From an uncultured Lentimicrobiaceae bacterium (GTDB lineage: Bacteria; Bacteroidota; Bacteroidia; Bacteroidales; F082), in the NCBI GenBank assembly GCA_964400655.1, contig CAYNVN010000121.1:2770-66769 (forward strand): a stretch of DNA of 64,000 bases, read 5' to 3'. This document shows, in pieces, positions 18,444-32,805 of this stretch; within the stretch, counting starts at the first letter, position 1; the number at the start of each line of letters is the position of its first letter. The position numbers and the translations under genes were made by a program. Below the pieces are notes generated by a model that saw only the letters and a program-made list of their open reading frames with translations, did not search any database and was not told the origin of the DNA.

Positions 18444-20907
18444 ATGAATTTTTTGTTTTCTCTCCATTCAAAAAAGCCCTTACAAAATGTAATTCCGACC
18501 ATGTAACCCTGTCGCCAAAAAATTCCTTTACCGCGCCCAGCCCCTCATCGGGATGCTCTTTCATATAATCGCTTATCAGGGTTACTTTTTCGGGGGCAAC
18601 CATTTTTTCGACGGGAAGTTTACCCGATTCAACATAAAAGGCAAGGTGCCGTTCGATGGTACCCTCGGTATAGCCCCTCTCTTCGGCAATTTTTTGTACC
18701 GACATTCCCTCCTGCCACATTTCAAAACTGATTTGTTTGGTGGGCTTTTTGGGAGTTATTTCAGGTTCGATGTAAGGTTCGGGCTGAAAATCATTTTCGT
18801 CGCAATAATCGGTTACAATCTCCAGCAGCTCACTACCGTAAAGTTCCAGTTTCTTTTTACCCATTCCTTTTACCGCTTTTAAAGCCGGAAGTGTAACCGG
18901 GAGCTTGTTGCTTATTTCGCGCATGGTTTTTAAGGGTAAAATCATGTAATAAGGCAGGCCCGTCTCTTCCACCCTGGCATCACGCCAATGTTTTAGCCGC
19001 ATATAAAGTTCGGGGTGTTCCAGGGTAGCGTCGGTTTTTGACACGGCCTTTTTCCCGGGCTTCGTTTTTACAGGCTCATCAATGGAAGCAAGTGCCTTTG
19101 CCTGTAAATAATCTTGTACCACAAATCCGTTTTCGCAGGCTTTCAAACAGGCAAACTTATATGCCGCGTCCTCCGACAATTTATTAAGCGCATCATAAAT
19201 GGATTTGCGCACGGCTTTATTGTCGGTTTCAATATCCGTTTCGTCAATTTTGTCAATAATTAACGTCTGCAACTTTTCCGAAAAATAGCCCGATGCCTTT
19301 TTAACACGCTCCTGCAGTTTTTCATTCTTTTCAACCTGCGGTTCCTCACTCAGCAGCGCCGTTAGTTGCCGGTTGAATTTTTCGGAAACAATCACCACCT
19401 CGTTTTTTAGTTTATCGCTCATGGATAAAAAAGGTGTTTTCAAATCAACCTGCAGCGATGCGGCATGTTCGTCAGCCAGTTTTAACAGATAAAATACTCT
19501 ACGGCGCAATGCTTCAAAATCAAACAAATCGGTTAAAAGCTGACGCTGAAAATCCTGCTTTGATTTTTCCAGTTCATTGCTGTCGGGCTGCTTCTCTTCA
19601 AAGTTTTTTGTAAATCGTTCAACGGTAGCATCGTGTTTGATGCTTGTGTTGGTAATCCGGCTGCTCAGTATCATACCTTCCAGCGATTTACAACGGCTGA
19701 GCGCCACATATACCTGACCGTGGGCAAAAGCGGCCTGAGCATCAATAACCGCTTTTTCAAAAGTAAGTCCCTGACTTTTATGAATGGTAATGGCCCATGC
19801 AGGTTTCAGGGGCAACTGGGTAAAGGTACCCTCAATATCTTCCTTAATCTCTTTGGTTTTATCGTTAATGGTATATTTCACTTTCTCCCATTCCAGCGGC
19901 GACACCTCAATAGGCTCATCATCGCCTTCGCAAAGCACCGTTACCCTGTTTTTCCCAATTTCGGTTATCACACCTATTTTACCATTATAAAACCGCTTAT
20001 CAGGGTCGGGATCGTTTTTAACAAACATAACCTGTGCGCCCTCTTTAAGTCGCAAATCAGGCTCGGTCGGGTAGATAAGTTCCGGGAAATTACCCTTTAT
20101 TACGGCTTTAAATTTTTTTTCTTTGCCTTTAAGTGCCAGCATCTTTTCATCGTTGATGGCCTTGGCTTTGGCATTGTGGGTGGTTAAAATAATGTACCCC
20201 GGCGTATCGAAATTAAAATCAGGCCTGTACCTTTTGTTTAACAGGGTTACCACCTCATCATCCATTTTATTGTCGCGAACCTTGTTAAGCAATTTGATAA
20301 AACTTTCATCTTTTTGGCGATAAACAAAAGTCAGTTCAACCGTTACATAATGTGTTTTTTTAAGGGCGTTACTGCTAAAAAAGAAAGGGGTGTCGTAATG
20401 ATTTCGCAACAGGCTCCACTCATCCTCCTTCACCACCGGAGCCAGTTGCTGCAAATCACCAATCATCAGCAGTTGCACACCGCCAAAGGGGCGGCTGTGG
20501 TCGCGAAATTTTCGTAATACTGCATCAATGCCGTCCAGCAAATCGGCCCGCACCATACTTATCTCATCAATCACCAGCAAATCCATGCTTTTGATGATGT
20601 TGATTTTGTTACGGTTAAACCGCTTAACCCCCTTACCGTTTTCGTCTTTCTGACGGGCATGCAGATATTCGGGAATTTGAGGGCCAAAGGATATTTGAAA
20701 AAAAGAATGAATGGTTACCCCGCCTGCATTGATGGCCGCCACTCCCGTGGGTGCCACTACCACCATCCGTTTTGAGGAATGCTTTTTTAAATAATGTAAA
20801 AAGGTGGTCTTCCCTGTTCCTGCTTTTCCGGTTAAAAAAACATTTCTTCCGGTAAACTGAACAAAGTCGTGAGCCAGCTGCAGTTGGGAATTGTTTTGAA
20901 AATTCAT
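18442..20907 (-). CDS. Pif1/RecD-like SF1 DNA helicase with C-terminal HRDC and HTH regions
   Basis: Walker A FLTGKAGTGKTT and Walker B LLVIDEISM. HRDC-like ...LKHWRDARVEETGLPYYMILPLKTMREI.... ATG chosen at 20907; the track's M at 20949 is a TTG. Confidence 0.85.
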   Translation of the reverse strand: MNFQNNSQLQLAHDFVQFTGRNVFLTGKAGTGKTTFLHYLKKHSSKRMVVVAPTGVAAINAGGVTIHSFFQISFGPQIPEYLHARQKDENGKGVKRFNRNKINIIKSMDLLVIDEISMVRADLLDGIDAVLRKFRDHSRPFGGVQLLMIGDLQQLAPVVKEDEWSLLRNHYDTPFFFSSNALKKTHYVTVELTFVYRQKDESFIKLLNKVRDNKMDDEVVTLLNKRYRPDFNFDTPGYIILTTHNAKAKAINDEKMLALKGKEKKFKAVIKGNFPELIYPTEPDLRLKEGAQVMFVKNDPDPDKRFYNGKIGVITEIGKNRVTVLCEGDDEPIEVSPLEWEKVKYTINDKTKEIKEDIEGTFTQLPLKPAWAITIHKSQGLTFEKAVIDAQAAFAHGQVYVALSRCKSLEGMILSSRITNTSIKHDATVERFTKNFEEKQPDSNELEKSKQDFQRQLLTDLFDFEALRRRVFYLLKLADEHAASLQVDLKTPFLSMSDKLKNEVVIVSEKFNRQLTALLSEEPQVEKNEKLQERVKKASGYFSEKLQTLIIDKIDETDIETDNKAVRKSIYDALNKLSEDAAYKFACLKACENGFVVQDYLQAKALASIDEPVKTKPGKKAVSKTDATLEHPELYMRLKHWRDARVEETGLPYYMILPLKTMREISNKLPVTLPALKAVKGMGKKKLELYGSELLEIVTDYCDENDFQPEPYIEPEITPKKPTKQISFEMWQEGMSVQKIAEERGYTEGTIERHLAFYVESGKLPVEKMVAPEKVTLISDYMKEHPDEGLGAVKEFFGDRVTWSELHFVRAFLNGEKTKNS

Positions 20908-20986
20908 TGACACAAAATGTAAAACACAAATATCCGAATTATTTAGCAATTAGACACTGTCCGTTTTGAAAATGAGCACACTAATC

Positions 20987-22486
20987 TTATTGTTTTTTTA
21001 CCGGCTTGTTCAATCGTTTTTTAATGATGGGCAGAAGGAACGAAACTGCCGCCAGCACCAAAATAATCAAACTCCAGGGGCGGGTAAAAAAATCGGAAAC
21101 ATCACCTTTTACCAGCGAAAGACGCAGGTTTTCTTCTATCATCCTGCCCAGTATCAATCCTAAAATTACGGGTGCCGTGGGAAATCCTCCTCTTTTCAGC
21201 ATCCAGCCCAGAAGGCCGAAAGCCAGACAGGTTCCCACATCAAAAAGAGAATTTTGAATAAAGTAACTGCCGATAAAAGAAAGGGCAATAATCAGCGGAT
21301 AGAGCAGCTTTTTAGGAGCTTCAATTATACGTACCCAAAGCCTGTTTCCCATCAATCCCAGCCCCATCATCACCAGATTGGCCAGAAACAAACTGATAAA
21401 CAGACCGTACACCAGCCCCGGTTCATTTTCAAACAGCTGAGGGCCGGGATTCAGTTTATGAACCATCAGGGCACCAATCAGCACGGCTGTTGAAGCGCTT
21501 CCCGGAATACCGAGGGTTAACAAAGGCACCAAAGCGCCCCCCACCGATCCGTTGTTGGCAGCTTCGGGAGCGGCAACCCCTTCCAGCGAACCTTTGCCAA
21601 ACCGTTTGGGATGTTTGCTGGTGCTTTTGGCATTGTTGTATGCAATAAAGGTGGCAATGGTTCCTCCTGCGCCGGGAATAACCCCAATAAGCGTACCCAC
21701 CACCGATGAACGGAGCATCAAACCTTTCAGCTTCCACAATTTTCTAAAGGGTAGTTTTTTATTTTTATGAATGGCTTTTTTTGCCGAAACCTCTTTTTTA
21801 AGCACCTTAAAATGCTCAATACTAAAAAATATTTCACCTAAGGCAAACAACCCGATCAGTGCCGGAATAAACTCTATTCCGTCGGCAAGTTGCGGAATAC
21901 CCATATTAAAACGCGAAAACGGCAACTGCGTATCAAAGCCAACGGTAACCAAAAGCAAACCCAGCAGCGATGCAATGTATCCCTTTACCGGATTGTCTCC
22001 TGCCAGCGACGAAATAATGGTCATACCGAAAACACCCAAAGCAAAATATTCGTATGATTCAAACGACAGAGCCAGTTGTGCCAACGGAATGGAAAACAGG
22101 ATAAGAATTACCGTTCCTACCAAACCGCCAACCGTGGAAGCCGTTAACGATGTAATTAAAGCATACATGGGTTTTCCCTGTTTGGTTAACTCATAGCCGT
22201 CGAAAGTGGTGGCAACCGCTCCGGGTGTTCCCGGTGTATTAATGGCGATGGCAGTGATGGAGCCTCCGTAATTGGCCGAAAGATAAACCGCCGTTAGCAG
22301 TACCAGCGCGCTCATGGGGTCCATTCCAAAGGTAGCCGGCAACATCAGGGCAACCCCTATTGAGGGGGAAAGCCCGGGCAAAACACCCACCATAATGCCC
22401 ACAACCACGCCAATCAAAATCATCAGCAACGGTGTAAGGTGCATTAACGACGAAAAACCCAGACTCAAATTATGTATAATATCCAT
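20987..22486 (-). CDS. tctA: Tripartite tricarboxylate transporter large permease TctA
   Basis: 499-aa polytopic protein. The N-terminal ...GVLPGLSPSIGVALMLPATFGMDP...YGGSITAIAINTPGTPGAVATTFDGY is typical of TctA/DUF112. Confidence 0.9.
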   Translation of the reverse strand: MDIIHNLSLGFSSLMHLTPLLMILIGVVVGIMVGVLPGLSPSIGVALMLPATFGMDPMSALVLLTAVYLSANYGGSITAIAINTPGTPGAVATTFDGYELTKQGKPMYALITSLTASTVGGLVGTVILILFSIPLAQLALSFESYEYFALGVFGMTIISSLAGDNPVKGYIASLLGLLLVTVGFDTQLPFSRFNMGIPQLADGIEFIPALIGLFALGEIFFSIEHFKVLKKEVSAKKAIHKNKKLPFRKLWKLKGLMLRSSVVGTLIGVIPGAGGTIATFIAYNNAKSTSKHPKRFGKGSLEGVAAPEAANNGSVGGALVPLLTLGIPGSASTAVLIGALMVHKLNPGPQLFENEPGLVYGLFISLFLANLVMMGLGLMGNRLWVRIIEAPKKLLYPLIIALSFIGSYFIQNSLFDVGTCLAFGLLGWMLKRGGFPTAPVILGLILGRMIEENLRLSLVKGDVSDFFTRPWSLIILVLAAVSFLLPIIKKRLNKPVKKQ

Positions 22487-22498
22487 ATCCGTTATTCT

Positions 22499-24004
22499 TT
22501 ACATAAACAGGCTCCCAAGCGGCAGGTCAATTTTTAACAACAGCTGAAACACCACAAACGAAAACACCACAAATCCAAAACCGTAAGCAATCATTACCGG
22601 CCATTTACGATATTTGAGAATATAAAATCCGGCCAGTAAAAAAAAGGGCGTTGATAAATAATATCCGGCATACGGAATGGCAATAAAATACAATACCAAC
22701 ACCAACAATATTTTGCCTGTAAGTTTTATCCTTCCGCTTTTAACCGGTTTGTATTTTCCTTTTAATTCGTTTACCAGATTCCATATTGCCGTAACAAACA
22801 ATAAAACCGACCATAACCTCGGAATAAGTGCCGGGCTGGTGATGTTCAACCCTTCGGGGATTTTAAAAAGAAAAGTTTGATAGAAAAAGAAAACCGAAAT
22901 CCACACAAACACTCCCGACAAAATCAGATTGTAGGTAAGCCGTTTTACTTTAAATCCGGTAATCAGCATCAAAACAAAAAAGATAAAAAGCGCAAAAATA
23001 ACGGCCATCATCAAAAGAGGAACCGGGCCTTTGTTAACATAACTGTTTAGCAAACCGGCTTTTTTCAAATAGGCAATGGTTTCGGCCGTTTCGTCATCAA
23101 TTCTTTTTGAAAAGGTTTTGGAATCGAGATAATCCGGAAAAGAATAAACCTCTCTGCAATAAGCAATCCACTCCTCATCCTGCGAAACCTTTTTCAATAC
23201 CTCCGACAAATAAGCTGTTGCTATTTCGGAGGTTCCTTTTTTAACGGCAAAGCCGCGCCACATGGATTCATTAATATCATATCCCGACTCTTTAAAAGTG
23301 GGCACATCCGGCAAACTTTCCAGCCGGTTTTCGGCGGCTATTGCCAATATTTTCAAATCATCTTTTCCCAAAATATCCGAAGGGTTTCCCACATAAACCG
23401 GTGCTTCGTTACGCAACATGGCCAACACCGACTGCGGCCCGCTTTTATAATCAACCCATTGCCCGTTTATACCGAGTATTTCCCAGCACTTTAAAGCCAT
23501 TAAATGGTCACGGCTTCCGGTTCCGGGGCCAATCCACACCTGTCTGCCTTCTTCCTTCGCCTTATCCACAACATCCTGTAACGATTTGTATCCGCTTGCC
23601 TTATTGGTAATAACCGCTTCGGGGTCCGATATCATATTGGAAAGAAAAAGAAAGTCGGAAATGGCCACATTGCTTTTGTTAACCACAAGGGTGCTTAAAA
23701 ACGACTTGGTAACGCCCAGCATGGTATAACCGTCGGCCTTTTTATCCATCACATATTGCATGGCCACAATACCCTGAGTACCCGGATGATTTTCGATAAC
23801 AAAAGGCTGCGGGCAATATTTACGTGCCAAACCGGCAACCTTACGCGACATAAGGTCGATGGAAGAACCGGGTTTGGAATGCACCACAATGGTTATGGGT
23901 TTGTTCGGGTAGGCTTTGCTGCTGTCGGCTCCTCCGTACAAATAAAAAAGAAGCCCGAGATAAATCAGAAATAAAAGGGTGGCAATAACTTTATATATTC
24001 TCAT
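22499..24004 (-). CDS. Fusion of a TctC (Bug-type) solute-binding domain and a TctB small membrane subunit
   Basis: N-terminal TM anchor. A roughly 300-aa Bug/TctC-like region follows (PITIVVHSKPGSSIDLMSRKVA...PGTQGIVAMQYV...). The C-terminal ~165 aa has four TM helices, as in TctB. ATG at 24004 preferred over the TTG at 24031. Confidence 0.7.
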   Translation of the reverse strand: MRIYKVIATLLFLIYLGLLFYLYGGADSSKAYPNKPITIVVHSKPGSSIDLMSRKVAGLARKYCPQPFVIENHPGTQGIVAMQYVMDKKADGYTMLGVTKSFLSTLVVNKSNVAISDFLFLSNMISDPEAVITNKASGYKSLQDVVDKAKEEGRQVWIGPGTGSRDHLMALKCWEILGINGQWVDYKSGPQSVLAMLRNEAPVYVGNPSDILGKDDLKILAIAAENRLESLPDVPTFKESGYDINESMWRGFAVKKGTSEIATAYLSEVLKKVSQDEEWIAYCREVYSFPDYLDSKTFSKRIDDETAETIAYLKKAGLLNSYVNKGPVPLLMMAVIFALFIFFVLMLITGFKVKRLTYNLILSGVFVWISVFFFYQTFLFKIPEGLNITSPALIPRLWSVLLFVTAIWNLVNELKGKYKPVKSGRIKLTGKILLVLVLYFIAIPYAGYYLSTPFFLLAGFYILKYRKWPVMIAYGFGFVVFSFVVFQLLLKIDLPLGSLFM

Positions 24005-24231
24005 GGAGCCTTTTGGTAAATAAGGATACAATAATAAATCATTTTTTTTATTTCCACACCCACCAATGTTTGAATTGCAATCAGGCTGACAAAATGATAA
24101 AAACTAAAGAAACGGAAACTTATGTAAAAGCAAAACCGTTTTTGATATACTGCTTTATAAAGTACGTTTTGAAACCAACGGTTTACACCGGAAAGGCTTG
24201 ATGATACAGGGGGCTTTAGTTCGCTAATATT

Positions 24232-26649
24232 TTATCGTTCATTTAATTGTTTGTCAGTTAAGATAAAAGAACCCGTTAGCCTTATATCCGTTGAAGAACT
24301 TCCGATGAGAATATTAAATTTACCCGGCTCCACAACAAAGTTCATATTTCTGTCGTACAAAGCAATATCTTCAGGGGTAATAACAAAATCAACTGTTTTC
24401 TCTTCGCCTGTTTTTAACGAAACCCTGTCAAATCCGCGCAACTGTTTTTCGTATTGTGTAACTGAGCTTACAGCATCGTTTACATACAGCTGAACCACTT
24501 CGCTACCATCATATTCTCCTGTATTTTTAACCTTAAAAGATACATTTATTGATGATGCTATTCCTCCTTTACCGGGTGTTATTTTTAAGTCTGAATATTC
24601 AAAAGTTGTATAACTTAAGCCGTAGCCAAAAGGATAAAGTTCTTTGAAAACACGTGAGCCTCCTCTCTTTTCCCTGTCCGCCTGCGAACCCGGTTTAAAT
24701 GGAAAGTTATAAGGTATTTGCCCCACTGTTTTGGGTGTAGTAACACTCATCTTTCCTCCGGGATTATATTTTCCGAAAAGTACATCTGCAATGGCGGTGC
24801 CGCCATACATTCCGGGGAACCATGCCTCAATAATAGCCGGTATATTTTTATTTGCCCAATTTATTGATAGTGGCCGTCCGTTTAATAATACAAGCACTAT
24901 TGGTTTACCTGTTTTTTTAAGCTCCATTAAAAATTTTCGTTGATTCCCAGGCAAATCCAAACTTGTACGCGAACATGACTCTCCAACTATTTTGCTGTTT
25001 TCACCTAAAAAAGCTATAATTAAATCCGACGCTTTTGCTTTGTTAACGGCTTCGTTCATAAGTTGTTGTTCCTTATCGCCTACGGCAACGGGATACAGCT
25101 CTTGTTCAGGCCAGGTATCGGGATTGTACAGCAGGCAACCTTTTGCGTATTGAACATCAGCTTTGTCGCCAACAAAAGCCTCAATACCTTCAAAGCCTGA
25201 AATCACATCAATATGATTTGGGCCGTAACGACTTTCCGAAGAGGCCTCCTCTTTTGCATTCGGGCCACATATTAAAATATTTTTATAATCTGAAATATTT
25301 AACGGTAACAGCTTGTTTTCATTTTTCAATAAAACAATGGCTTCACGCGATGCCTGAAGCGCCACTTTTTTACTCTTTTCGGTATTTACAATGTCATTTA
25401 CCGCCTTTTCGTCATGATACGGATTATCAAAAAGCCCTTCCCAAAACTTCACTCTTAAAACATCTCTGACTCTGTCGTCTATTATTTTGGTGGAAATGGA
25501 ACCTTCATTTATTAATTCACGTAAGGGCAACACAAAATTTTCGGGAATTTCAAAAGAGGTACGTACATTAAGCCCGGCCTGCACCGATTGACGAACAGCC
25601 TCTTTATATGTGGCAGCAGTATGGTGTTTTTCCGAAATAAACTTAACAGCCCACGAGTCGGAAACAACATATCCTTTAAAATGATACGTGTTTCGTAATA
25701 GTTTTGTAAGAAAATATTCACTTCCTGTAACCGGAACGCCATTATAATCGTTATAGGAACTCATTACTCCCAAAGCGCCGCCCTCCTGAATACCTCTGCG
25801 GAAAGGATATAGATATATACTGTGTGCTTCTCTGTTTGTAATATGAGGGTCGGTACGTACTTTCCCGTCTCTGCCACCTTTTGGAGCAGAGTAAATTGCA
25901 AAATGTTTTAAAGTGCTTGTTACCCTGTTTGCCTGTATCCCCTTAATTTGCTGTATGCCTAATTCTGCAACAAGAAAAGGGTCTTCCCCGTATGTTTCTA
26001 CAATTCTGCCCCAACGCTGGTCGCGCGAAACATCCATAATCGGCGAATAGACATTATTGTAACCTAATGCACGGGCTTCCGTGCCTGTTATTTTACCTAT
26101 CTCATTCACAAGTTTTTTATCCCAGGTACAGCCAACAGCAATTTGAGCCGGAAAACATGTTGCTTTTGTATGATTTAACCCTCTGATACCTTCGTTTGTA
26201 AATTCAACCGGAATGCCAAGTCTTGTCTCTTCAACAAAAAACTTTTGAACCTGATTTAAAGCCCAAACATGTTTTGAGTATGGATACATATAATCGGATT
26301 CAACCACACCGTTACAGTGTTCATCAATATTGGCAAGTCCGTCTTTCCATATTGCCGTTTTCCATTCGGGTGTTGGCAGCTGGTCTTTTGCAACCCGTTT
26401 GTAACCGTACAAAGTAACCATCTGCATTGTTTTCTCCTCAATACTCATTTGCGACAGCAAATCTTCAACACGTGCATCAATATCCTGACCGGGGTCTTCG
26501 TAAATATCTTTTTTACCATTTTTGTTGAAGTCAATCCATCCTTTGTGATAAATTGATGTTGAATTATTTTTCCGATTCTTTTGTGCTTCCAAAGTGTTAA
26601 TTTGAAACACTAAAAGTGTTATAAAAACTACAAACAGTTGTTGTCTCAT
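24232..26649 (-). CDS. Glycoside hydrolase family 3 (beta-glucosidase/BglX-like)
   Basis: Signal peptide, a GH3 catalytic region KGYVVSDSWAV, and a C-terminal FnIII-like domain. 805 aa. Confidence 0.9.
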   Translation of the reverse strand: MRQQLFVVFITLLVFQINTLEAQKNRKNNSTSIYHKGWIDFNKNGKKDIYEDPGQDIDARVEDLLSQMSIEEKTMQMVTLYGYKRVAKDQLPTPEWKTAIWKDGLANIDEHCNGVVESDYMYPYSKHVWALNQVQKFFVEETRLGIPVEFTNEGIRGLNHTKATCFPAQIAVGCTWDKKLVNEIGKITGTEARALGYNNVYSPIMDVSRDQRWGRIVETYGEDPFLVAELGIQQIKGIQANRVTSTLKHFAIYSAPKGGRDGKVRTDPHITNREAHSIYLYPFRRGIQEGGALGVMSSYNDYNGVPVTGSEYFLTKLLRNTYHFKGYVVSDSWAVKFISEKHHTAATYKEAVRQSVQAGLNVRTSFEIPENFVLPLRELINEGSISTKIIDDRVRDVLRVKFWEGLFDNPYHDEKAVNDIVNTEKSKKVALQASREAIVLLKNENKLLPLNISDYKNILICGPNAKEEASSESRYGPNHIDVISGFEGIEAFVGDKADVQYAKGCLLYNPDTWPEQELYPVAVGDKEQQLMNEAVNKAKASDLIIAFLGENSKIVGESCSRTSLDLPGNQRKFLMELKKTGKPIVLVLLNGRPLSINWANKNIPAIIEAWFPGMYGGTAIADVLFGKYNPGGKMSVTTPKTVGQIPYNFPFKPGSQADREKRGGSRVFKELYPFGYGLSYTTFEYSDLKITPGKGGIASSINVSFKVKNTGEYDGSEVVQLYVNDAVSSVTQYEKQLRGFDRVSLKTGEEKTVDFVITPEDIALYDRNMNFVVEPGKFNILIGSSSTDIRLTGSFILTDKQLNER

Positions 26650-27353
26650 TTCTAAATCAATATTTTATCTCAAAACAAAATCAAAACAGGTTATTTTATA
26701 TAATTCTTTTTGCTTTTGCGGCGGTGTAACCCCCCCCCTGTTTTAGGAAGGCACTAAATTAGACTTTTTTCGTGTTATAATCTTTCATCCATTCTTCATG
26801 CAATCGGATTACCTGACGGGGAAAATCAAACATATAAATATCTGACACACCAGGCAGAGAGAAAATGCTTTTCAAAAAAAAGCAAAGGCAAATTTACAAT
26901 AGTAAAAAGGCAGACTTTTGATTTACCCCGAAACCGCTATTTTGTTGAGCTTCCCTATACAATAGGATTTGAACGGTTTGAGCATTTGGTTGAAAGCATT
27001 AAAAACAACTGCAATATTAATATGTTCAATGCCGCCCCGGTAACCCTTGCCCGTTACGACAGGGTAATGAACTTTATTGCTGTCTGTTCAAAAGATTGCG
27101 ATGAATAAAAGCTTCCTGAATTTAAATACTATCCCGACAAACATATTTAGAGAGATTTCTAAATTAAATATCTCAAATTTTCAGGTTATATCCTTTATAA
27201 ATAGTGCTGTAAAAAACAGTACTACAACTTATTCTGCATGCATAATATTTTTAGGTATCGAATATATTTAAATATAATATAAATAACTGACATCTTTTAT
27301 TTTATAAGGCATGAGATATAATTTTGCCCTCATCAACATAAAAGATTTTTCAC

Positions 27354-29018
27354 ATGAAAAAAATACTTGAAATCATTTTTATCATCATTATTCCCTGGGT
27401 TATTATCCTATGGATAGTATTCAATTACAATAGCGACAGGGACAGCGATTATTACCCCTCATCGGAGATTAGTCTGAAACACGACTCCATTCCGGTTGAC
27501 CACTCAAAATTTGAGATTTTACAGCAGGATTTCAAAACCGGCCCCGAAGTTACCGAAGCCTGTTTAAGCTGCCATAACGGACGGGGTAAAGAGTTTATGA
27601 AAACACAACACTGGAAATGGTTAAAAACCGACTCCATTCCCGGAAGAGGGACTTTTGAACTGGGAAAGAAAAACCTGCTGAACAACTTCTGTATCGGTGT
27701 TAACTCCAACGAAAAACTCTGTTCAAAATGTCATGCCGGATATGGCTACGGCGATAAAAACTTTGATTTCAACAATCAAAACAACATCGACTGTTTGATA
27801 TGCCACGACGGTACCAAAACCTATAAAAAATCCAAACCCGGCAAAGGCCCCGGTTCGGGTTCCGGATATCCGGCAGCCGGTGTTAACCTCAGCTTTGTTG
27901 CGCAACATGTTAATTTGCCAAAACGGAACAACTGCGGCAGCTGCCACTTTACCGGCGGAGGCGGAAACAATGTAAAACACGGTGATTTGGAAATAGGATT
28001 ACTGAGTGCACACACCGGACTTCACGGCGATGTGGATGTTCATATGGGAATGGGTAAAGACGGCAAAAACATGCAGTGTATCGATTGCCACAAAACACAC
28101 CAACATCAAATATCGGGTCAGCTTTACTCCGTTTCGTCATCCAACAGCAATCGTGCTACCTGCGAAGAGTGCCACACATCAAAACCGCACAAAAGCAAAC
28201 TGTTAAACGACCACTTTAAAACCATTGCCTGTCAAACCTGCCACATAACAGGCTATGCCAAATTACACGAAACCAAAATTATTTGGGACTGGTCAACCGC
28301 AGCCATGCACGACAAAAACGGCAAATTAATAACCAAAATAAACACAAAAGACAGCACCTATACATTCGACGGAAAAGTTTACAAAAATGTTAAAATACAT
28401 TTTGATGCCAAGCATGGTACCGCCGTATTTAAAAAAGATGTACGTCCCGAATACATCTGGTTTAACGGTACTGCCGACCACTACATGATTACCGATAAAA
28501 TCAAAGACCCCTCAAAACCTTTAGTAATGAACCCGCTGCTTGGTTCTTACGAAGATCATTACAACCCTGCCGACCCTAAATCACCTTCTAAAATATGGCC
28601 TGTTAAAATCATGCGCGGCAAACAACCTTATGATGCGGTTAATAAAACGCTGGTTCAACCCAAACTGGTAGGAAAAAAAGGCAGTGGTGCTTTATGGGCC
28701 GATTATAACTGGAACATCTCCATTAAAAAAGGCATGGAATATATCGGTCAACCTTACAGCGGTAAATACGGCTTTATCGAAACCCAAACACTGTGGCCGC
28801 TTAACCATGAAGTTTCGCAAAAGGATAAAGCCCTGCAATGTGCCGACTGCCACAACGCTACCGACAGCAGGCTGAAAAACCTCACCGGTTTTTATCTGCC
28901 GGGCAGAGACAAAAGCGCATTACTCGATAATGCCGGCCTCATCTTCCTCGTTTTGGTTTTACTGGGAGTCAGTATTCACGGATTCCTAAGAATTGTCAGC
29001 AGTAAAAAAGAACATTAA
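27354..29018 (+). CDS. Octaheme c-type cytochrome, tetrathionate-reductase (OTR)-family-like
   Basis: Eight CxxCH motifs: CLSCH, CSKCH, CLICH, CGSCH, CIDCH, CEECH, CQTCH, CADCH. There is a gap of about 200 aa before heme 8. N-terminal TM/signal anchor and a C-terminal TM helix LIFLVLVLLGVSIHGFL. The heme count is certain; the subfamily call is from memory. Confidence 0.8.
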   Translation: MKKILEIIFIIIIPWVIILWIVFNYNSDRDSDYYPSSEISLKHDSIPVDHSKFEILQQDFKTGPEVTEACLSCHNGRGKEFMKTQHWKWLKTDSIPGRGTFELGKKNLLNNFCIGVNSNEKLCSKCHAGYGYGDKNFDFNNQNNIDCLICHDGTKTYKKSKPGKGPGSGSGYPAAGVNLSFVAQHVNLPKRNNCGSCHFTGGGGNNVKHGDLEIGLLSAHTGLHGDVDVHMGMGKDGKNMQCIDCHKTHQHQISGQLYSVSSSNSNRATCEECHTSKPHKSKLLNDHFKTIACQTCHITGYAKLHETKIIWDWSTAAMHDKNGKLITKINTKDSTYTFDGKVYKNVKIHFDAKHGTAVFKKDVRPEYIWFNGTADHYMITDKIKDPSKPLVMNPLLGSYEDHYNPADPKSPSKIWPVKIMRGKQPYDAVNKTLVQPKLVGKKGSGALWADYNWNISIKKGMEYIGQPYSGKYGFIETQTLWPLNHEVSQKDKALQCADCHNATDSRLKNLTGFYLPGRDKSALLDNAGLIFLVLVLLGVSIHGFLRIVSSKKEH

Positions 29019-29036
29019 TATTATAAACAAAGAAAA

Positions 29037-30566
29037 ATGAAAAAGGTATTAATATATAAAGGTTACGAACGTTTTTGGCACTGGACACAGGCATTGCTTA
29101 TCCTGCTGCTGGCGGTCACCGGTTTTGAAGTTCACGGAACTTTTCACTTAATGGGATACGAAGAGGCCGTATTAATTCACCGCAACCTGGCATGGGCATT
29201 TATCATTCTTATTGTTTTTACTCAATTTTGGAATATGACCACCGGCGAATGGCGACAATATGTTCCCTCAACCCAGTTGTTAAAAGACCAAATTGAATAC
29301 TACATAACAGGCATTTTCAGAAATGCCCCCCACCCCACACGTAAAACGGTTTACAACAAATTTAATCCGTTGCAACGCTTAACCTATCTCGGTCTCCGAA
29401 TATTAATCATTCCTGTGGTGGTATTAAGCGGATTGGTTTACATGTATTATGTATCGCTGGTTGATCAAAGCGCCGTGGGAAGTCTGGCACCTGTTGCCCT
29501 GATACACACCCTCGGAGCCTTTTTACTGCTCGGGTTTGTTATCGGCCATGTTTATTTAACAACTACCGGACACCGTCCGCTCTCGGCCATTAAAGCCATG
29601 CTCACCGGATGGGAGGACATGTCGGATGAAGATGCCGAAATGGCACTGGAAGAAAACTTAAAAGTGGCACTCATCGAAAGCAGAAAAGGCATTAGCGGAC
29701 GGGGAAGCATCGAAAAAGAGGGTATGTTTGAAACCGCCTTTGAAGATGTGGTGGAAAAACTGGGTATCAGCACCGAATCAACAAGATTGCGCGAAAAGCT
29801 ACTCTCCTCCAACGTTGGATATTTCCGTATCGGAAAAGACGGCAAATATCAGGAGGTGAACGAAGTTTGGCTCAAACTCTATAAATGCACCAATAAAAAA
29901 GAGGTGATAGGTTCGGATGTAACCCTCGACAGAACACCCGAAGGCAAAAAACAAATTATGACGCTCGTTAACAAAATCCTTTCGGGCGAAATAATTACCG
30001 GCGAACGTGTTGAACGGGTTTGTAAAGACGGCAGCATAGGTTATCATACCGTTTCGGCAGCACCGCTAAAAGACAAAGACGGTAACATTGTCGGACTGGA
30101 AGGCTTTATCATCGACATCACCCCGCAGGTAGAAGCCGAAAAAGCCCTTGAAAAGAAAATAGCCGCCCAACACCGGTCGAATATTTTTTATGAGCAGATT
30201 GCCAAATCAAAAGATGTGGGTTATTTCCGCATTGGCGATCAGGGATTTTATCAGGAGGTAAACGATGCCTGGCTTAAACTTTACAAATACGAATCAAAAG
30301 ACGAAATCATCGGCAAACACTACTCGTTAAGCCGTACCAAAGAAGACTTTATTAAACTGAAACAATCATTTGAAAAAGTTTTAAAAGGTGAAACCATCCC
30401 GCTGGGTATTACACGCCGTTATTGTAAAGACGGATCGGTAGGTTATCACACCATAACCATGACCCCTGTTTACGAAAACGGTAAAATTACCGCCGTTGAA
30501 GGATTTATTGTTGACAAAACCGACCGCAAGCTGGCCGAAGAAGAGTTGAAAAAAGGACAGGTTTAA
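29037..30566 (+). CDS. Cytochrome b (Ni/Fe-hydrogenase/PhsC b-type family) membrane domain fused to two PAS domains
   Basis: N-terminal ERFWHWTQALLILLLAVTGF, four TM helices with conserved His residues, and ...GHVYLTTTGH. Two paralogous PAS-like repeats follow, starting VGYFRIGKDGKYQEVNEVWLKLYK and VGYFRIGDQGFYQEVNDAWLKLYK. No kinase or other output domain. Confidence 0.8.
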   Translation: MKKVLIYKGYERFWHWTQALLILLLAVTGFEVHGTFHLMGYEEAVLIHRNLAWAFIILIVFTQFWNMTTGEWRQYVPSTQLLKDQIEYYITGIFRNAPHPTRKTVYNKFNPLQRLTYLGLRILIIPVVVLSGLVYMYYVSLVDQSAVGSLAPVALIHTLGAFLLLGFVIGHVYLTTTGHRPLSAIKAMLTGWEDMSDEDAEMALEENLKVALIESRKGISGRGSIEKEGMFETAFEDVVEKLGISTESTRLREKLLSSNVGYFRIGKDGKYQEVNEVWLKLYKCTNKKEVIGSDVTLDRTPEGKKQIMTLVNKILSGEIITGERVERVCKDGSIGYHTVSAAPLKDKDGNIVGLEGFIIDITPQVEAEKALEKKIAAQHRSNIFYEQIAKSKDVGYFRIGDQGFYQEVNDAWLKLYKYESKDEIIGKHYSLSRTKEDFIKLKQSFEKVLKGETIPLGITRRYCKDGSVGYHTITMTPVYENGKITAVEGFIVDKTDRKLAEEELKKGQV

Positions 30567-30613
30567 AACAAAAACAACTCAAAAACAAGTTTTCCCGGGG
30601 AGATGCCCCACAT

Positions 30614-30648
30614 AAAAACCCGCAGTCATGGGCAACTGCGGGTTTTTT
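30614..30648. terminator. Bidirectional Rho-independent terminator
   Basis: 10-bp stem AACCCGCAGT/ACTGCGGGTT, flanked by an A-run and a T-run. It sits between convergent genes. Confidence 0.85.
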
Positions 30649-30677
30649 AATATATAAGCACTAAATATGCCGTATAA

Positions 30678-31283
30678 CTACTTTCCGGCATTATCTCTCG
30701 ATTTTTGGCCGAGGTAACCGCCATGATGGCGTAATGAATACTCTTTGCTGGTGAATCCTATTTTTTTCATCATCTGCACCACCAAAATATCGCCTATCAC
30801 GGTCATAATGGTGGTGGAAGTGGTGGGCGACAAACCCAGAGGGCATACCTCCCGGGGATTACCCGTACAAAGCACCACATCGGCTTCGCCGGCAACCACA
30901 CTTTCGTTGTTGGAGGTTACGGCAATAATGGGAATATCGGGATGGAGTCGCCGGGTAAGTGTTATCAATTCAATTATTTCGCGGGTTTTACCCGAATTGG
31001 AAATAAGCAACAGCGCATCGTTCCGCTGAATAACACCCAAATCGCCGTGTTGTGCATCGCTCGGGTGCAAAAATACCGACGGAGTTCCCGTAGAGCTGAA
31101 AGTGGTGGCAATGTTAATGGCAATTTGTCCCGCCTTACCCATACCGCTGGTAATTAGTTTACCCTCCTTTTGGTGCACATGACGGTAAATAATTTCGATG
31201 GCCTTTTCGTAAGCATCCGTAACCGGAATATTTAAAATGGCTTCTGCTTCCTGCTGCCTTATCTTTAATATATCGTCTATCAT
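30678..31283 (-). CDS. Single-domain SIS protein, KpsF/KdsD (arabinose-5-phosphate isomerase)-like, without CBS domains
   Basis: GKLITSGMGKAGQIAINIATTFSSTGTPSVFLHPSDAQHGDLGVIQRNDALLLISNSGKT closely follows the KdsD/GutQ SIS core. Start chosen at MIDDILK. Confidence 0.8.
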   Translation of the reverse strand: MIDDILKIRQQEAEAILNIPVTDAYEKAIEIIYRHVHQKEGKLITSGMGKAGQIAINIATTFSSTGTPSVFLHPSDAQHGDLGVIQRNDALLLISNSGKTREIIELITLTRRLHPDIPIIAVTSNNESVVAGEADVVLCTGNPREVCPLGLSPTTSTTIMTVIGDILVVQMMKKIGFTSKEYSLRHHGGYLGQKSRDNAGK

Positions 31284-31434
31284 TGTAATTTGCTTTGGAA
31301 AGCACAAAAGTAGTCAAAATAAAATCTACGTTTTCAAACTTAGGTTGTCAATTATTAAAGTTATCCTATTTTAGCAGGCTTACAAAAAGCCTGTAAATAT
31401 ATTTTGTAAAAAAACCAACAAAAATCGTAAACAA

Positions 31435-32805
31435 ATGAAACAAAACTTTATCCTTTTAATGCTGTCAATGGTTTTGCTAATGCCAACGGTTTATGCCGAA
31501 TCTCCCAAAGAAAAACCCCAACAAAAAAAAGAGCGCATGGCATGGTGGACTCACGATCGTTTCGGCATGTTTATCCACTGGGGGTTGTATTCAATGGCTT
31601 CGCGCCATGAATGGGTTAAAAAATATGAACGGATGACCGATGAAGAATATCAAAAATATTTTGAATTGTTCGATCCCGATATGTTTAATCCTCGCGAATG
31701 GGCTAAAATGGCCAAAGCGGCCGGCATGAAATACGCGGTTATCACCACTAAGCATCACGAAGGTTTTTGCATGTTCGATTCAAAATACACCGATTATAAA
31801 GTTACCAACACTCCGGCAGGTCGCGATTTAATTAAAGAGTGGACGGAAGCTTTTAGAGCCGAAGGTTTAAAAGTGGGTTTTTACTATTCGTTGCTCGACT
31901 GGCATCACCCCGATTATACAATAGACCGCAATCATCCGCAAAGTGCTTCAACAGATGAGGAGTACGAAAAACTCAATCGCGGACGGGATATGAATGTATA
32001 TCGTCAATATATTAAAGATCAGGTAAGAGAATTATTAACCAACTATGGTAAAATCGATATTATCTGGCTTGACTACTCATTTCCTTCAGGAAAACACGGA
32101 AAAGGCAAAAACGACTGGGATTCGCAAAACCTTTTAAAGATGGTGCGCCGGTTACAACCCGGAATTATTGTTAACGACAGGCTTGATTTACTTGACAGTG
32201 AAGACGGATGGGACTTCACAACTCCCGAACAATACAACGTATCCAGATGGCCCGAGCGTAACGGCAAACGCATCCCCTGGGAAACCTGTCAGACTTTTTC
32301 GGGATCGTGGGGATACTACCGTGACGAGATGACCTGGAAAAGCAACAGGCAACTATTAACCCTTTTAATAGAAACCGTAAGCAAAGGCGGCAACCTGTTA
32401 TTAAATGTTGGCCCCACCTCCCGCGGCATCATCGATTATCGTGCCCAAAACCGTTTGGCAGCCATGGGTAAGTGGATGAAATTTAATTCACGTTCCATTT
32501 ACGGTTGCACACAAGCCCCTCCTGAATTTACCACACCGCCCAACACTCTTTTAACCTACAATCCCGAAACCAACCGCCTTTACATTCATCTGTTAAACTA
32601 TCCCATTAAACGACTCATCCTTAAAGGATATGCCGACAGAATAAAATATGCACAGTTTCTCCACGACGGTTCCGAAATAAAGTTCGGCAAACCACGCCAC
32701 AATGTTACCTACATGGAAAAACAGGATAAAAATGACATTATATTAATGTTACCCGTTGTAAAACCCAATGTTGAAATTCCGGTAATCGAACTGTTTTTAA
32801 AATAG
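31435..32805 (+). CDS. alpha-L-fucosidase (GH29)
   Basis: Signal peptide, then WWTHDRFGMFIHWGLYS and AVITTKHHEGFCMFDS, which are typical GH29 blocks. Confidence 0.9.
   Translation: MKQNFILLMLSMVLLMPTVYAESPKEKPQQKKERMAWWTHDRFGMFIHWGLYSMASRHEWVKKYERMTDEEYQKYFELFDPDMFNPREWAKMAKAAGMKYAVITTKHHEGFCMFDSKYTDYKVTNTPAGRDLIKEWTEAFRAEGLKVGFYYSLLDWHHPDYTIDRNHPQSASTDEEYEKLNRGRDMNVYRQYIKDQVRELLTNYGKIDIIWLDYSFPSGKHGKGKNDWDSQNLLKMVRRLQPGIIVNDRLDLLDSEDGWDFTTPEQYNVSRWPERNGKRIPWETCQTFSGSWGYYRDEMTWKSNRQLLTLLIETVSKGGNLLLNVGPTSRGIIDYRAQNRLAAMGKWMKFNSRSIYGCTQAPPEFTTPPNTLLTYNPETNRLYIHLLNYPIKRLILKGYADRIKYAQFLHDGSEIKFGKPRHNVTYMEKQDKNDIILMLPVVKPNVEIPVIELFLK

What the first reader, a model, noticed from the sequence alone, without database searches (positions are those of the whole stretch)
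27354..30566. Octaheme c-type cytochrome plus dedicated cytochrome b module between sugar-utilisation genes
The 554-aa protein has exactly eight CxxCH motifs and no CxxCK. Seven lie within about 230 aa, and the eighth follows a gap of about 200 aa. As I remember it, this pattern matches the octaheme tetrathionate reductase (OTR) family rather than NrfA. Unusually, it is predicted to carry both an N-terminal anchor and a C-terminal TM helix. A four-TM b-type cytochrome follows 18 nt downstream and would serve as a quinol-oxidising partner. The pair is isolated: about 700 bp of AT-rich non-coding DNA lies upstream and a strong bidirectional terminator downstream. No maturation or regulator genes are nearby. 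Its substrate (tetrathionate, nitrite, hydroxylamine, sulfite or other) cannot be read from the sequence. OTR-family physiology is poorly defined in general.
Basis: partly seen in the sequence, partly recalled or inferred. Interest (0 to 1): 0.6.

Follow-up and report, generated by a model that had tools for sequence, protein, structure and literature searches.

The report
Membrane octaheme reductase with PAS-tagged cytochrome b
This is a two-gene respiratory module from a hydrothermal-vent Bacteroidales bacterium: an eight-haem reductase of the OTR family plus its membrane cytochrome b. The pair itself is common and was already noted in the literature, but here the cytochrome b carries two cytoplasmic PAS sensor domains, and the sulfur genes that flank it in close relatives are missing.

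Summary
ORF 27354-29018 is a clear OTR-family octaheme cytochrome c: TIGR04315 at 525 bits against a cut-off of 375, and E=1e-104 to Shewanella OTR (PDB 1SP3). It has eight CxxCH motifs, no CxxCK, the Lys56-equivalent K105, and a hydrophobic helix at each end.

- **The partner is more than a cytochrome b.** ORF 29037-30566 is a HyaC/PhsC-type di-haem cytochrome b (residues 1-195) fused to two PAS domains, with no output domain.
- **The double anchor and the adjacent cytochrome b are normal.** 86 of 86 OTRs have the C-terminal helix, and about 79 of 80 loci have a cytochrome b directly downstream. One relative is a single OTR-cytochrome b polypeptide.
- **The isolation is secondary.** In the closest relative (cytochrome b-PAS 95% identical) the pair sits in the order: 239-aa gene, OTR, cyt b-PAS, psrABC, split yeeE, rhodaneses. 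Here a GH3 gene has replaced most of the 239-aa gene, leaving a remnant with an in-frame stop, and the psr block is absent. The "non-coding" spacer also holds a conserved palindrome and promoter block.

Most likely this is a menaquinol-linked periplasmic reductase for a sulfur compound. The substrate is inferred from gene neighbours only. The PAS role is unknown. I rate it a new variant of a known kind, of moderate interest.

The parts
26809..27150 (+). Pseudogene remnant: the 3' third of a conserved 239-aa gene of unknown function. It has no start codon and carries an in-frame TAA at 27106-27108. The homologous C-terminal codons (KLPEFKYYPDKHI) continue after that stop.
   Evidence: tblastn of neighbours' ORFs hits 26809-27147. 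The translation is and the alignment A6 with 21 intact homologues is. blastn shows that the relative L088 aligns only from window position 26998 onward, the rest being replaced by the GH3 gene.
27229..27248 (.). Conserved imperfect palindrome TTATTCTGCA|TGCATAATAT, a candidate operator for an unidentified regulator. Its form in relatives is TTATTACGCATGCGTAATAA.
   Evidence: The upstream alignment A8 is. The motif occurs once in the 64-kb window and at the equivalent upstream position in L085, L086, L088, L089 and L090. The background rate is 36 per 1.09 Mb.
27261..27290 (+). Conserved AT-rich block AATATATTTAAATATAATATAAATAACTGA upstream of the OTR gene.
   Evidence: It is conserved in 6 of 7 aligned upstream regions. 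Its function is not tested.
27319..27326 (+). TAATTTTG, which matches the Bacteroidota -7 promoter consensus TAnnTTTG, 28 nt before the ATG.
   Evidence: The sequence is and the position is conserved in L088 and L089. The consensus is from my own knowledge. This is weak evidence on its own.
27354..29018 (+). OTR-family octaheme cytochrome c, 554 aa. It has an N-terminal signal or anchor helix, eight CxxCH motifs, K105 as the Lys ligand of haem 2 (C123xxC126H127), and a C-terminal tail (GFYLPGRD, then a TM helix containing H541-x3-R).
   Evidence: Evidence is.
29037..29621 (+). Cytochrome b domain (residues 1-195) of PF01292 HyaC/FdnI/PhsC type. It has four TM helices and haem ligands H15, H48, H157 and H171, plus two further invariant histidines, H33 and H99.
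   Evidence: Pfam scores 85.4 bits against a cut-off of 30.1. The profile matches E. coli HyaC (4GD3) at E=6.7e-6 with all four histidines aligned.
29787..30170 (+). PAS domain 1 (residues about 251-378), cytoplasmic.
   Evidence: Evidence is.
30171..30551 (+). PAS domain 2 (residues about 379-505). It ends in a short helix and then the stop codon, with no transmitter domain.
   Evidence: Evidence is.
30614..30647 (.). Bidirectional intrinsic terminator hairpin, with an A-tract on one side and a T-tract on the other.
   Evidence: Evidence is.

Best explanation
The two genes encode one membrane-bound quinol:acceptor oxidoreductase.

**Shown**
- Gene 1 is a member of the octaheme tetrathionate reductase (OTR) family with every defining residue present.
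- Gene 2 begins with a HyaC/FdnI/PhsC-type four-helix cytochrome b that carries the four canonical haem-ligand histidines.
- The two genes are adjacent in nearly all relatives and are fused into one protein in at least one.

**Inferred**
- The OTR is exported and held at the outer face of the membrane by its ends. Its C-terminal helix, which has a near-universal His-x3-Arg, packs against the cytochrome b in the way the tail helices of FdnH and HyaA pack against FdnI and HyaC.
- Menaquinol is oxidised at the cytochrome b. Electrons pass through the b haems and the bis-His c-haem chain to the Lys-ligated haem 2, where a periplasmic substrate is reduced.
- The substrate is most likely an inorganic sulfur compound (tetrathionate, thiosulfate, polysulfide or sulfite). 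In relatives the pair sits beside YeeE/YedE sulfur-transport genes, rhodaneses, PsrABC-like enzymes or DsrE-TusA-Hdr-like genes.
- The two cytoplasmic PAS domains are a Bacteroidota-specific addition that most likely senses a cytoplasmic signal and modulates the complex, or reports to a separate partner.

**State of this locus**
This copy is a trimmed version of the cluster. The upstream accessory gene is dead and the psr-yeeE-rhodanese block is absent, but the two core genes look functional.
For: **Family membership**
- TIGR04315 scores 524.7 bits against a cut-off of 375, and PDB 1SP3 matches at E=1.2e-104.
- K105 aligns with the haem-2 ligand Lys56, and C123xxC126H127 aligns with C74xxC77H78. 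Those ligand residues are stated in PMC3769277.
- Seven further histidines are invariant, enough for seven bis-His haems.

**Cytochrome b**
- PF01292 scores 85.4 bits.
- H15, H48, H157 and H171 are invariant and align with the matching conserved histidine positions of HyaC in 4GD3.

**Link between the two genes**
- A cytochrome b lies directly downstream of the OTR in about 79 of 80 genome loci.
- P0148 is a single 777-aa OTR-cytochrome b fusion: TIGR04315 at 605 bits plus a PhsC-like domain.
- All 86 surveyed OTRs have a C-terminal hydrophobic helix; FY[LM]PG is present in 70 of 86 and H-x3-R in 85 of 86.

**Sulfur link**
- Among neighbours of plain-cytochrome-b loci, Sulf_transp (PF04143) matches 66 of 141 proteins and Rhodanese 49 of 141.
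- Among neighbours of PAS-type loci, Rhodanese matches 12 of 72 and Crp/Fnr 9 of 72.
- The closest relatives L088 and L089 carry psrABC-like genes, split yeeE and rhodaneses directly downstream. L085 and L086 carry DsrE2-DsrE-TusA-FlpD-HdrA-like genes.
- otr transcripts rose 36-fold after tetrathionate addition in an Acidobacteriota MAG (PMC8528874).
- The organism occurs in hydrothermal-vent and epibiont metagenomes.

**The core genes look functional**
- dN/dS against L088 is 0.025 for the OTR and 0.028 for cytochrome b-PAS, and 0.031 for the PAS part alone.
- The upstream palindrome, promoter block and terminator are conserved or intact.

**PAS domains as sensors**
- The AF2 model gives two canonical PAS folds.
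- The best PDB fold matches are tandem-PAS sensors: LOV-PAS histidine kinase, FixL, DosP, MmoS and NifL.
- The family signature R.C.DG..G.H recurs in PAS domains of histidine kinases and an HD-GYP protein.
Against: - There is no expression, biochemical or genetic evidence for this organism, and no RNA run was found.
- Purified Shewanella OTR is far better at reducing nitrite and hydroxylamine than tetrathionate, and an otr deletion has no tetrathionate phenotype (PMC12949373).
- The sulfur assignment rests on gene neighbourhood only, and in this very window those neighbours are absent.
- The complex between the OTR helix and the cytochrome b is an analogy. It was not modelled.
- The PAS domains have no output domain, no identified ligand and no close solved relative (best E=0.009). 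A purely structural or oligomerising role is not excluded.
- The dead upstream gene could mean that the module is on its way out.
Confidence: 0.6

Rival explanations
1. The enzyme is a nitrite or hydroxylamine reductase, serving ammonification or detoxification, and is not a sulfur-compound reductase.
For: In vitro, OTR enzymes show mainly nitrite and hydroxylamine reductase activity and very low tetrathionate activity. OTR also resembles NrfA and HAO structurally (PMC12949373). The window copy has no sulfur genes next to it.
Against: No Nap, Nrf or other nitrogen-oxide genes appear among the top families in 213 neighbour proteins from about 70 loci, whereas YeeE-type sulfur transport and rhodanese dominate. 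The closest relatives carry psrABC, yeeE and rhodanese genes, or DsrE and TusA genes.
Confidence: 0.15
2. In this strain the pair is a decaying remnant that no longer does useful work. It was left behind when the surrounding sulfur cluster was lost.
For: The upstream 239-aa gene is truncated and carries an in-frame stop. The psrABC-yeeE-rhodanese block present in relatives that are 89-95% identical is missing. A sister strain in another metagenome appears to keep more of the upstream gene: its contig runs on for 538 nt upstream and opens with matching coding sequence.
Against: Both ORFs are full length with all eight haem motifs, K105 and all haem-b histidines. dN/dS is about 0.03, although most of that divergence may predate the loss. 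The promoter region and terminator are intact. Many relatives (L002, L005, L090) also lack an adjacent psr block.
Confidence: 0.15
3. The cytochrome b-PAS protein is mainly a signalling device. The redox state of the b haems, set by the quinone pool or by OTR turnover, is read by the PAS domains and passed to an unlinked regulator. OTR then acts as a periplasmic sensor input rather than as a bulk respiratory enzyme.
For: PAS domains of this subtype occur in histidine kinases and an HD-GYP protein. PAS copy number varies from one to three within the family. Crp/Fnr regulators often flank the PAS-type loci. The last PAS domain ends in a helix of the kind that usually leads into a transmitter.
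Against: About 80% of surveyed OTR partners are plain cytochromes b with 47-70% identical cytochrome b domains, so the core function does not need PAS. There is no output domain and no conserved partner gene. The 239-aa gene is present in only some PAS-type loci and is dead here.
Confidence: 0.1

Closest known systems
Octaheme tetrathionate reductase (OTR, SO_4144) of Shewanella oneidensis, PDB 1SP3, family TIGR04315
   Same: It matches over the whole catalytic domain at E=1e-104, with 46% identity in alignment A1. It has eight CxxCH motifs with the same spacing, the same Lys ligand (Lys56 = K105) for haem 2, and the same invariant distal histidines.
   Different: Shewanella OTR is described as a soluble periplasmic protein thought to be fed through CymA and periplasmic cytochromes (PMC12949373). 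The matched part of the 1SP3 chain ends just after the last haem motif. The window protein has a roughly 50-aa C-terminal tail with a TM helix and a dedicated cytochrome b encoded directly downstream.
Otr plus cytochrome b561 gene pair noted in Ignavibacteriae bacterium Ch128a (PMC7509429)
   Same: It is the same two-gene arrangement and the same proposed link to the quinone pool. My survey shows that this is the standard arrangement in Ignavibacteriota, Bacteroidota, Acidobacteriota and other phyla.
   Different: In that pair, and in about 80% of surveyed loci, the cytochrome b is a plain protein of 200-240 aa. Here it is 509 aa with two PAS domains.
Membrane anchors of E. coli hydrogenase-1 (HyaC with the HyaA tail helix, PDB 4GD3), formate dehydrogenase-N (FdnI with FdnH) and Salmonella thiosulfate reductase PhsC
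   Same: It has the same PF01292 four-helix cytochrome b with four histidine ligands, two of them 14 residues apart on helix 4. The periplasmic electron-transfer subunit has a single C-terminal TM helix. That structural point is from my own knowledge of 1KQF and 4GD3.
   Different: The catalytic partner is a multihaem cytochrome c, not an Fe-S or Mo or Ni-Fe enzyme. The PhsC equivalog model scores 95.8 bits, below its cut-off of 204, so this is not a PhsC orthologue. There are extra invariant histidines (H33, H99 and H541 of the OTR tail). None of the known anchors carries PAS domains.
Tandem-PAS cytoplasmic sensors (FixL, DosP, NifL, MmoS, LOV-PAS histidine kinase)
   Same: They share the tandem PAS fold and are the best PDB fold matches.
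   Different: Sequence similarity is marginal. The LOV signature is absent at the aligned position. I did not test for haem- or flavin-binding residues. No kinase, GGDEF, EAL or DNA-binding output is present, and the N-terminus is a respiratory cytochrome b.

Membership tests
OTR family (TIGR04315, tetrathionate reductase family octaheme c-type cytochrome) | Scores above the curated family HMM cut-off over the full model | tested here: met
   The score is 524.7 bits against a cut-off of 375, covering model positions 1-440 of 440.
OTR family (TIGR04315) | Eight CxxCH haem-binding motifs, seven clustered and one distal | tested here: met
   The motifs lie at residues 70, 123, 147, 194, 242, 270, 293 and 496. 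All are invariant in alignment A1.
OTR family (TIGR04315) | A remote lysine (Lys56 in S. oneidensis) as axial ligand of haem 2 | tested here: met
   K105, in the GKKN motif, aligns with Lys56. G-K is kept in all 77 surveyed OTRs that the pattern search could align. The ligand identity comes from PMC3769277. Actual ligation is not testable here.
OTR family (TIGR04315) | Tetrathionate (or nitrite/hydroxylamine) reductase activity | not testable with these tools
   This needs enzyme assays. The physiological substrate of the family is itself unsettled (PMC12949373).
NrfA pentahaem nitrite reductase / ONR (TvNiR) | CxxCK motif at the catalytic haem | tested here: not met
   There is no CxxCK. PF02335 scores 17.5 bits, below its cut-off of 24.1. 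PDB NrfA hits have E of about 0.007.
MccA/SirA octahaem sulfite reductase | CX15CH motif for haem 8 (a feature recalled from PMC7096707) | tested here: not met
   All eight motifs are standard CxxCH, including the last one, C496ADCH. The copper-site cysteines were not examined.
PF01292 prokaryotic cytochrome b561 (HyaC/FdnI/PhsC type) | Pfam gathering score, four TM helices and four histidine haem ligands | tested here: met
   The score is 85.4 bits against a cut-off of 30.1. The helices are at residues 9-33, 41-69, 111-141 and 151-176. H15, H48, H157 and H171 are invariant and align with HyaC.
PhsC (NF011582 equivalog, thiosulfate reductase cytochrome b) | Equivalog HMM cut-off | tested here: not met
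   The score is 95.8 bits against a cut-off of 204. It is PhsC-like, not an orthologue.
PAS-containing sensor histidine kinase | HisKA and HATPase_c transmitter after the PAS domains | tested here: not met
   No kinase domain is found in Pfam or NCBIfam, and the protein ends 4 residues after the last PAS-associated helix.

The most novel reading that the evidence does not exclude
The tandem PAS domains make this a self-regulating respiratory enzyme. Each domain has a strongly conserved, highly polar residue set (Tyr, Asn, Trp, Tyr-Lys, His, Arg, Arg-x-Cys, His and Glu). On this reading the domains bind a cytoplasmic ligand or cofactor, for example haem, a flavin, or a sulfane-sulfur adduct on the invariant cysteine. 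They then gate electron flow through the adjacent cytochrome b, or pass the signal to an unlinked partner. That would be a transmitter-less one-component sensor built into a quinol dehydrogenase, a design not described for any respiratory cytochrome b. The small 239-aa four-cysteine protein seen only beside some PAS-type loci could be its partner.
Probability: 0.3. Interest if true: 0.75.

Novelty: new variant of a known kind. Interest (0 to 1): 0.45.

Why it matters
The physiological job of OTR-family cytochromes has been open since 2004. The only studied enzyme, from Shewanella, is an atypical soluble form with no deletion phenotype on tetrathionate (PMC12949373).

This locus belongs to the much larger membrane-bound, cytochrome b-linked clade, which has more than 580 loci among the species representatives searched. 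The gene neighbours of that clade point consistently to sulfur-compound handling. [quoted passage not shown]

The PAS-fused cytochrome b, found in Bacteroidota, is an unusual case of sensor domains attached directly to a respiratory membrane anchor. If the PAS domains control electron flow, that would be a new way of regulating a respiratory branch.

This particular copy is a poor model organism case. It comes from an uncultured vent bacterium, its accessory genes are lost, and there are no expression data.

Tried and rejected
- I therefore could not check the rest of the genome for cytochrome c maturation genes, psr, yeeE, rhodanese or Crp/Fnr genes.
- **FNR-type box.** TTGAT-N4-ATCAA is not enriched (60 matches against 58.5 expected), and there is no match in the spacer.
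- **Sigma-70 and terminator scan.** It gave nothing useful for this Bacteroidota promoter and missed the real terminator.
- **PAS profile against PDB sequences.** Only marginal hits appeared (best E=0.009), so no ligand could be inferred.
- **The 239-aa protein.** It has no Pfam or NCBIfam family. The confident AF2 model (pLDDT 87) has no significant PDB fold match: the best is E=0.03 and TM about 0.25 to coproheme decarboxylase, which I do not trust.
- **MccSep.** This pentahaem polysulfide reductase selenoprotein (PMC13510729) was checked as a possible relative. It is a different pentahaem enzyme.
- **RNA-seq runs.** None were found.
- **Alternative contig paths.** The paths at 30652 and 30670 in two metagenomes could not be matched to any fetched locus.
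- **Literature search for a cytochrome b-PAS fusion.** Nothing was found. The library is incomplete, so this is weak evidence of absence.


Full report
**1. What is there**

The window carries two co-directional ORFs, 27354-29018 (554 aa) and 29037-30566 (509 aa), separated by 18 nt.

The first ORF has eight CxxCH motifs, at residues 70, 123, 147, 194, 242, 270, 293 and 496, and no CxxCK. It has hydrophobic helices at residues 4-22 and 527-545.

Downstream, a hairpin at 30614-30647 is flanked by an A-tract and a T-tract. It folds at -26.3 and -27.5 kcal/mol on the two strands, and none of 200 shuffles does as well.

The neighbours on the left are a PIF1-type helicase, TctA, a TctC-TctB fusion and a GH3 glycosidase. 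On the right are a SIS-domain protein, a GH29 fucosidase, a class II aldolase, an MFS transporter and fucose isomerase.

Contigs from public metagenome runs span both junctions: 25648-28741 and 28730-31800 in one run, and 26524-30215 in another. The arrangement is therefore supported by other runs, although one of them may be the sample the window was assembled from. The DNA is found in hydrothermal-vent and epibiont metagenomes. No RNA run was found.

**2. Gene 1 is a true OTR-family enzyme**

- It scores 524.7 bits on NCBIfam TIGR04315 (cut-off 375) over the whole model.
- It matches the Shewanella oneidensis OTR chain 1SP3 at E=1.2e-104.
- In S. oneidensis OTR, haem 2 is attached at C74xxC77H78 and ligated by Lys56 (PMC3769277). 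In the alignment these are C123xxC126H127 and K105 of the window protein.
- Besides the eight motif histidines, seven more are invariant (H86, H209, H230, H251, H279, H287, H485). That is the number needed for seven bis-His haems.
- NrfA-type matches are insignificant.

**3. Gene 2 is a cytochrome b plus two PAS domains**

Residues 1-195 match PF01292 at 85.4 bits against a cut-off of 30.1. The closest named model is PhsC, at 95.8 bits, which is below its equivalog cut-off of 204. Residues about 251-378 and 379-505 are PAS domains. No output domain follows.

Across 70 homologues, six histidines are invariant: H15, H33, H48, H99, H157 and H171. A profile of the cytochrome b domain finds E. coli HyaC (4GD3) at E=6.7e-6. 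H15, H48, H157 and H171 align with the conserved RxWHW, TM2, TM4 and GHVY histidines of HyaC.

The AF2 model has a mean pLDDT of 79. It shows four long helices, a helical linker and two canonical PAS folds, with the second followed by a terminal helix. Its best PDB fold matches are tandem-PAS sensors: LOV-PAS histidine kinase, FixL, DosP, MmoS and NifL. The usual topology of this cytochrome b family puts both termini in the cytoplasm (my own knowledge), so the PAS domains should be cytoplasmic.

**4. The pair is the rule, not an oddity**

A pattern scan of one genome per species found more than 583 loci that encode relatives. In the 80 best loci:

- A cytochrome b homologue lies directly downstream of the OTR in about 79. 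The exception sits at a contig end.
- Every OTR has eight CxxCH motifs and a 48-73-aa tail with a hydrophobic helix.
- The tail motif FY[LM]PG occurs in 70 of 86 OTRs, and a His-x3-Arg in the helix occurs in 85 of 86.
- The N-terminal helix is not conserved in sequence, as expected for a signal or anchor.

A search of 1.8 billion cluster representatives found many proteins of 700-900 aa in which a multihaem cytochrome c is fused to this cytochrome b. One of them, P0148, scores 605 bits on TIGR04315 and carries the PhsC-like domain in the same chain. That natural fusion is strong evidence that the two proteins work as one unit. An 'Otr and cytochrome b561' cluster has already been noted in an Ignavibacteriae genome (PMC7509429).

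**5. The PAS fusion is the unusual part**

Sixteen of the surveyed loci have one, two or three PAS domains on the cytochrome b. Fifteen are labelled Bacteroidota and one MAG is labelled Chlorobiota. The rest have a plain cytochrome b of 200-260 aa.

At 50% clustering, only about four clusters combine the two domain types. On an OTR tree the window protein sits in a fully supported clade of eight whose partners all carry PAS domains. The trait needs at least three or four changes on the tree.

The 196 PAS domains of the family share a strong signature: GY[FY]RI, VN..W..LYK, IG.H....R, R.C.DG..G.H and EG[FI]I.D. No solved structure is close in sequence. The R.C.DG..G.H signature also occurs in PAS domains of histidine kinases and an HD-GYP protein. 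I found no paper that describes a cytochrome b-PAS fusion.

Earlier notes of this scan on another genome (e1-4305943) reached a similar description. I treated that as a lead only, and everything above was recomputed here.

**6. The 'isolation' is secondary**

In the closest relative, L088 (cytochrome b-PAS 95% identical), the gene order is: PIF1 helicase, TctA, TctC-TctB, a 239-aa gene, OTR, cytochrome b-PAS, a PsrA-like molybdoenzyme, a 4Fe-4S subunit, an NrfD-type subunit, two half-YeeE genes and rhodaneses. L089 is the same downstream.

blastn aligns L088 1-3205 with window 20844-24047, and L088 3959-7532 with window 26998-30568. So in the window:

- The GH3 gene (24232-26649, minus strand) occupies the place of the first two thirds of the 239-aa gene.
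- The remaining frame has no start codon and carries a TAA at 27106-27108. The conserved C-terminal residues continue after that stop.
- The psr block is replaced by the terminator and the fucose genes.

A sister strain in an epibiont metagenome is about 7% divergent here. Its contig continues upstream into sequence that encodes the intact protein's ...IYADVNDK motif.

The 239-aa family is small (21 homologues). It has no Pfam or NCBIfam assignment, has four conserved cysteines, and has no significant fold match. It was found only beside PAS-type loci.

**7. The spacer also holds conserved regulatory sequence**

Upstream regions of the window and of L085, L086, L088, L089 and L090 share three elements:

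- a palindrome (window 27229-27248; perfect form TTATTACGCATGCGTAATAA);
- an AT-rich block (27261-27290);
- a TAnnTTTG element (27319-27326).

The palindrome core with its flanks occurs once in the 64-kb window and 36 times in 1.09 Mb of fetched DNA. The regulator is unknown. An FNR-type box is absent.

**8. Substrate**

This is inference from neighbours.

- Around plain-cytochrome-b loci, Sulf_transp (YeeE/YedE type) matches 66 of 141 neighbour proteins and Rhodanese matches 49, with MerR, MarR and Crp regulators also present.
- Around PAS-type loci, Rhodanese matches 12 of 72 and Crp/Fnr matches 9 of 72.
- L085 and L086 have DsrE2-DsrE-TusA-FlpD-HdrA-like genes next door. L087, L088 and L089 have psrABC-like genes, yeeE and rhodaneses.
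- No nitrogen-oxide respiration genes reach the tallies.
- In sediment microcosms, otr transcripts of an Acidobacteriota MAG rose 36-fold with tetrathionate (PMC8528874).

Against this, purified OTR prefers nitrite and hydroxylamine, and otr deletions in Shewanella have no tetrathionate phenotype. A sulfite role has been suggested (PMC12949373).

I therefore put a sulfur-compound acceptor at roughly 0.55-0.6 and leave the exact compound open. The cytochrome b is PhsC-like, and Salmonella PhsABC is reported to use the proton motive force to drive thiosulfate reduction. That claim is from my own knowledge of Stoffels et al. 2012, which is listed in the references of PMC5317093; the paper itself is not held. 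A similar reverse-loop mechanism for a low-potential sulfur acceptor is possible here but untested.

**9. State of the genes**

Against L088, dN/dS is 0.025 for the OTR and 0.028 for cytochrome b-PAS (0.028 for the cytochrome b part and 0.031 for the PAS part). Synonymous sites are saturated. The pseudogene remnant has four to eight times more non-synonymous change than the two core genes.

The two core genes look functional. However, this measure covers the whole divergence, and most of it may predate the local losses.

**10. Verdict**

The 'unusual' features it stressed are ordinary for the clade. The most interesting feature, the PAS domains on a respiratory cytochrome b, was not part of this finding's description.

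This is a new variant of a known kind. It has moderate interest as a family-level lead on OTR physiology and on PAS-controlled respiration, and lower interest as an individual locus.

Noticed in passing
window 26809-27150: This is the remnant of a conserved 239-aa gene. The gene has four conserved cysteines and the motifs DHH, CFQD, SPGQ and KNNCxFNMFN, and it has no family assignment. It is intact and directly upstream of the OTR gene in L085, L088, L089 and L059, and I found it only beside PAS-type loci. Its AF2 model is confident (pLDDT 87) but has no significant PDB match.
   Followed up: partly
window 27229-27248 (also L085:5163, L086:5190, L088:4190, L089:4195, L090:4197): A conserved palindrome of the form TTAYnnGCATGCnnRTAA lies about 105-125 nt upstream of the OTR start codon. 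It is unique in the window, and the regulator that binds it is unknown.
   Followed up: partly
window 26650-28760, runs X3 and X4: There is strain heterogeneity here. In an epibiont metagenome the flanks are at least 99% identical at depth of about 50-65. The spacer and most of the OTR gene are covered mainly by an allele about 7% divergent, whose contig extends into an apparently more complete 239-aa gene. This looks like a recombination mosaic.
   Followed up: partly
window 30652 and 30670: Contigs in two runs leave the window sequence exactly at the two feet of the terminator. This suggests alternative neighbours in co-occurring strains. The alternative sequences matched none of the fetched loci.
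   Followed up: partly
window 26731-26738: A C8 homopolymer lies upstream of the GH3 gene. It shows a 2-nt length difference and a C>T change in contigs of runs X1, X2, X3 and X4.
   Followed up: no
window 22499-24031 (minus strand): A single 510-aa protein combines TctC (PF03401) and TctB (PF07331). The same fusion is present in the relative L088.
   Followed up: no
P0148, P0183, P0189 and about 40 other cluster representatives: A large class of 700-900-aa proteins fuses a cytochrome c with seven or eight CxxCH motifs to the same PhsC-like cytochrome b in one chain. Most members have seven CxxCH motifs and score only weakly on TIGR04315. They may be an uncharacterised sister family of membrane multihaem reductases.
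   Followed up: partly
L086:1785-4940 and L090:790-3812: A Rieske protein and a cytochrome b-multihaem cytochrome c fusion of about 910 aa lie divergently upstream of the OTR pair in two relatives.
   Followed up: no
L007: One Bacteroidota contig carries two OTR/cytochrome b-PAS pairs in tandem. The two pairs belong to different OTR clades.
   Followed up: no
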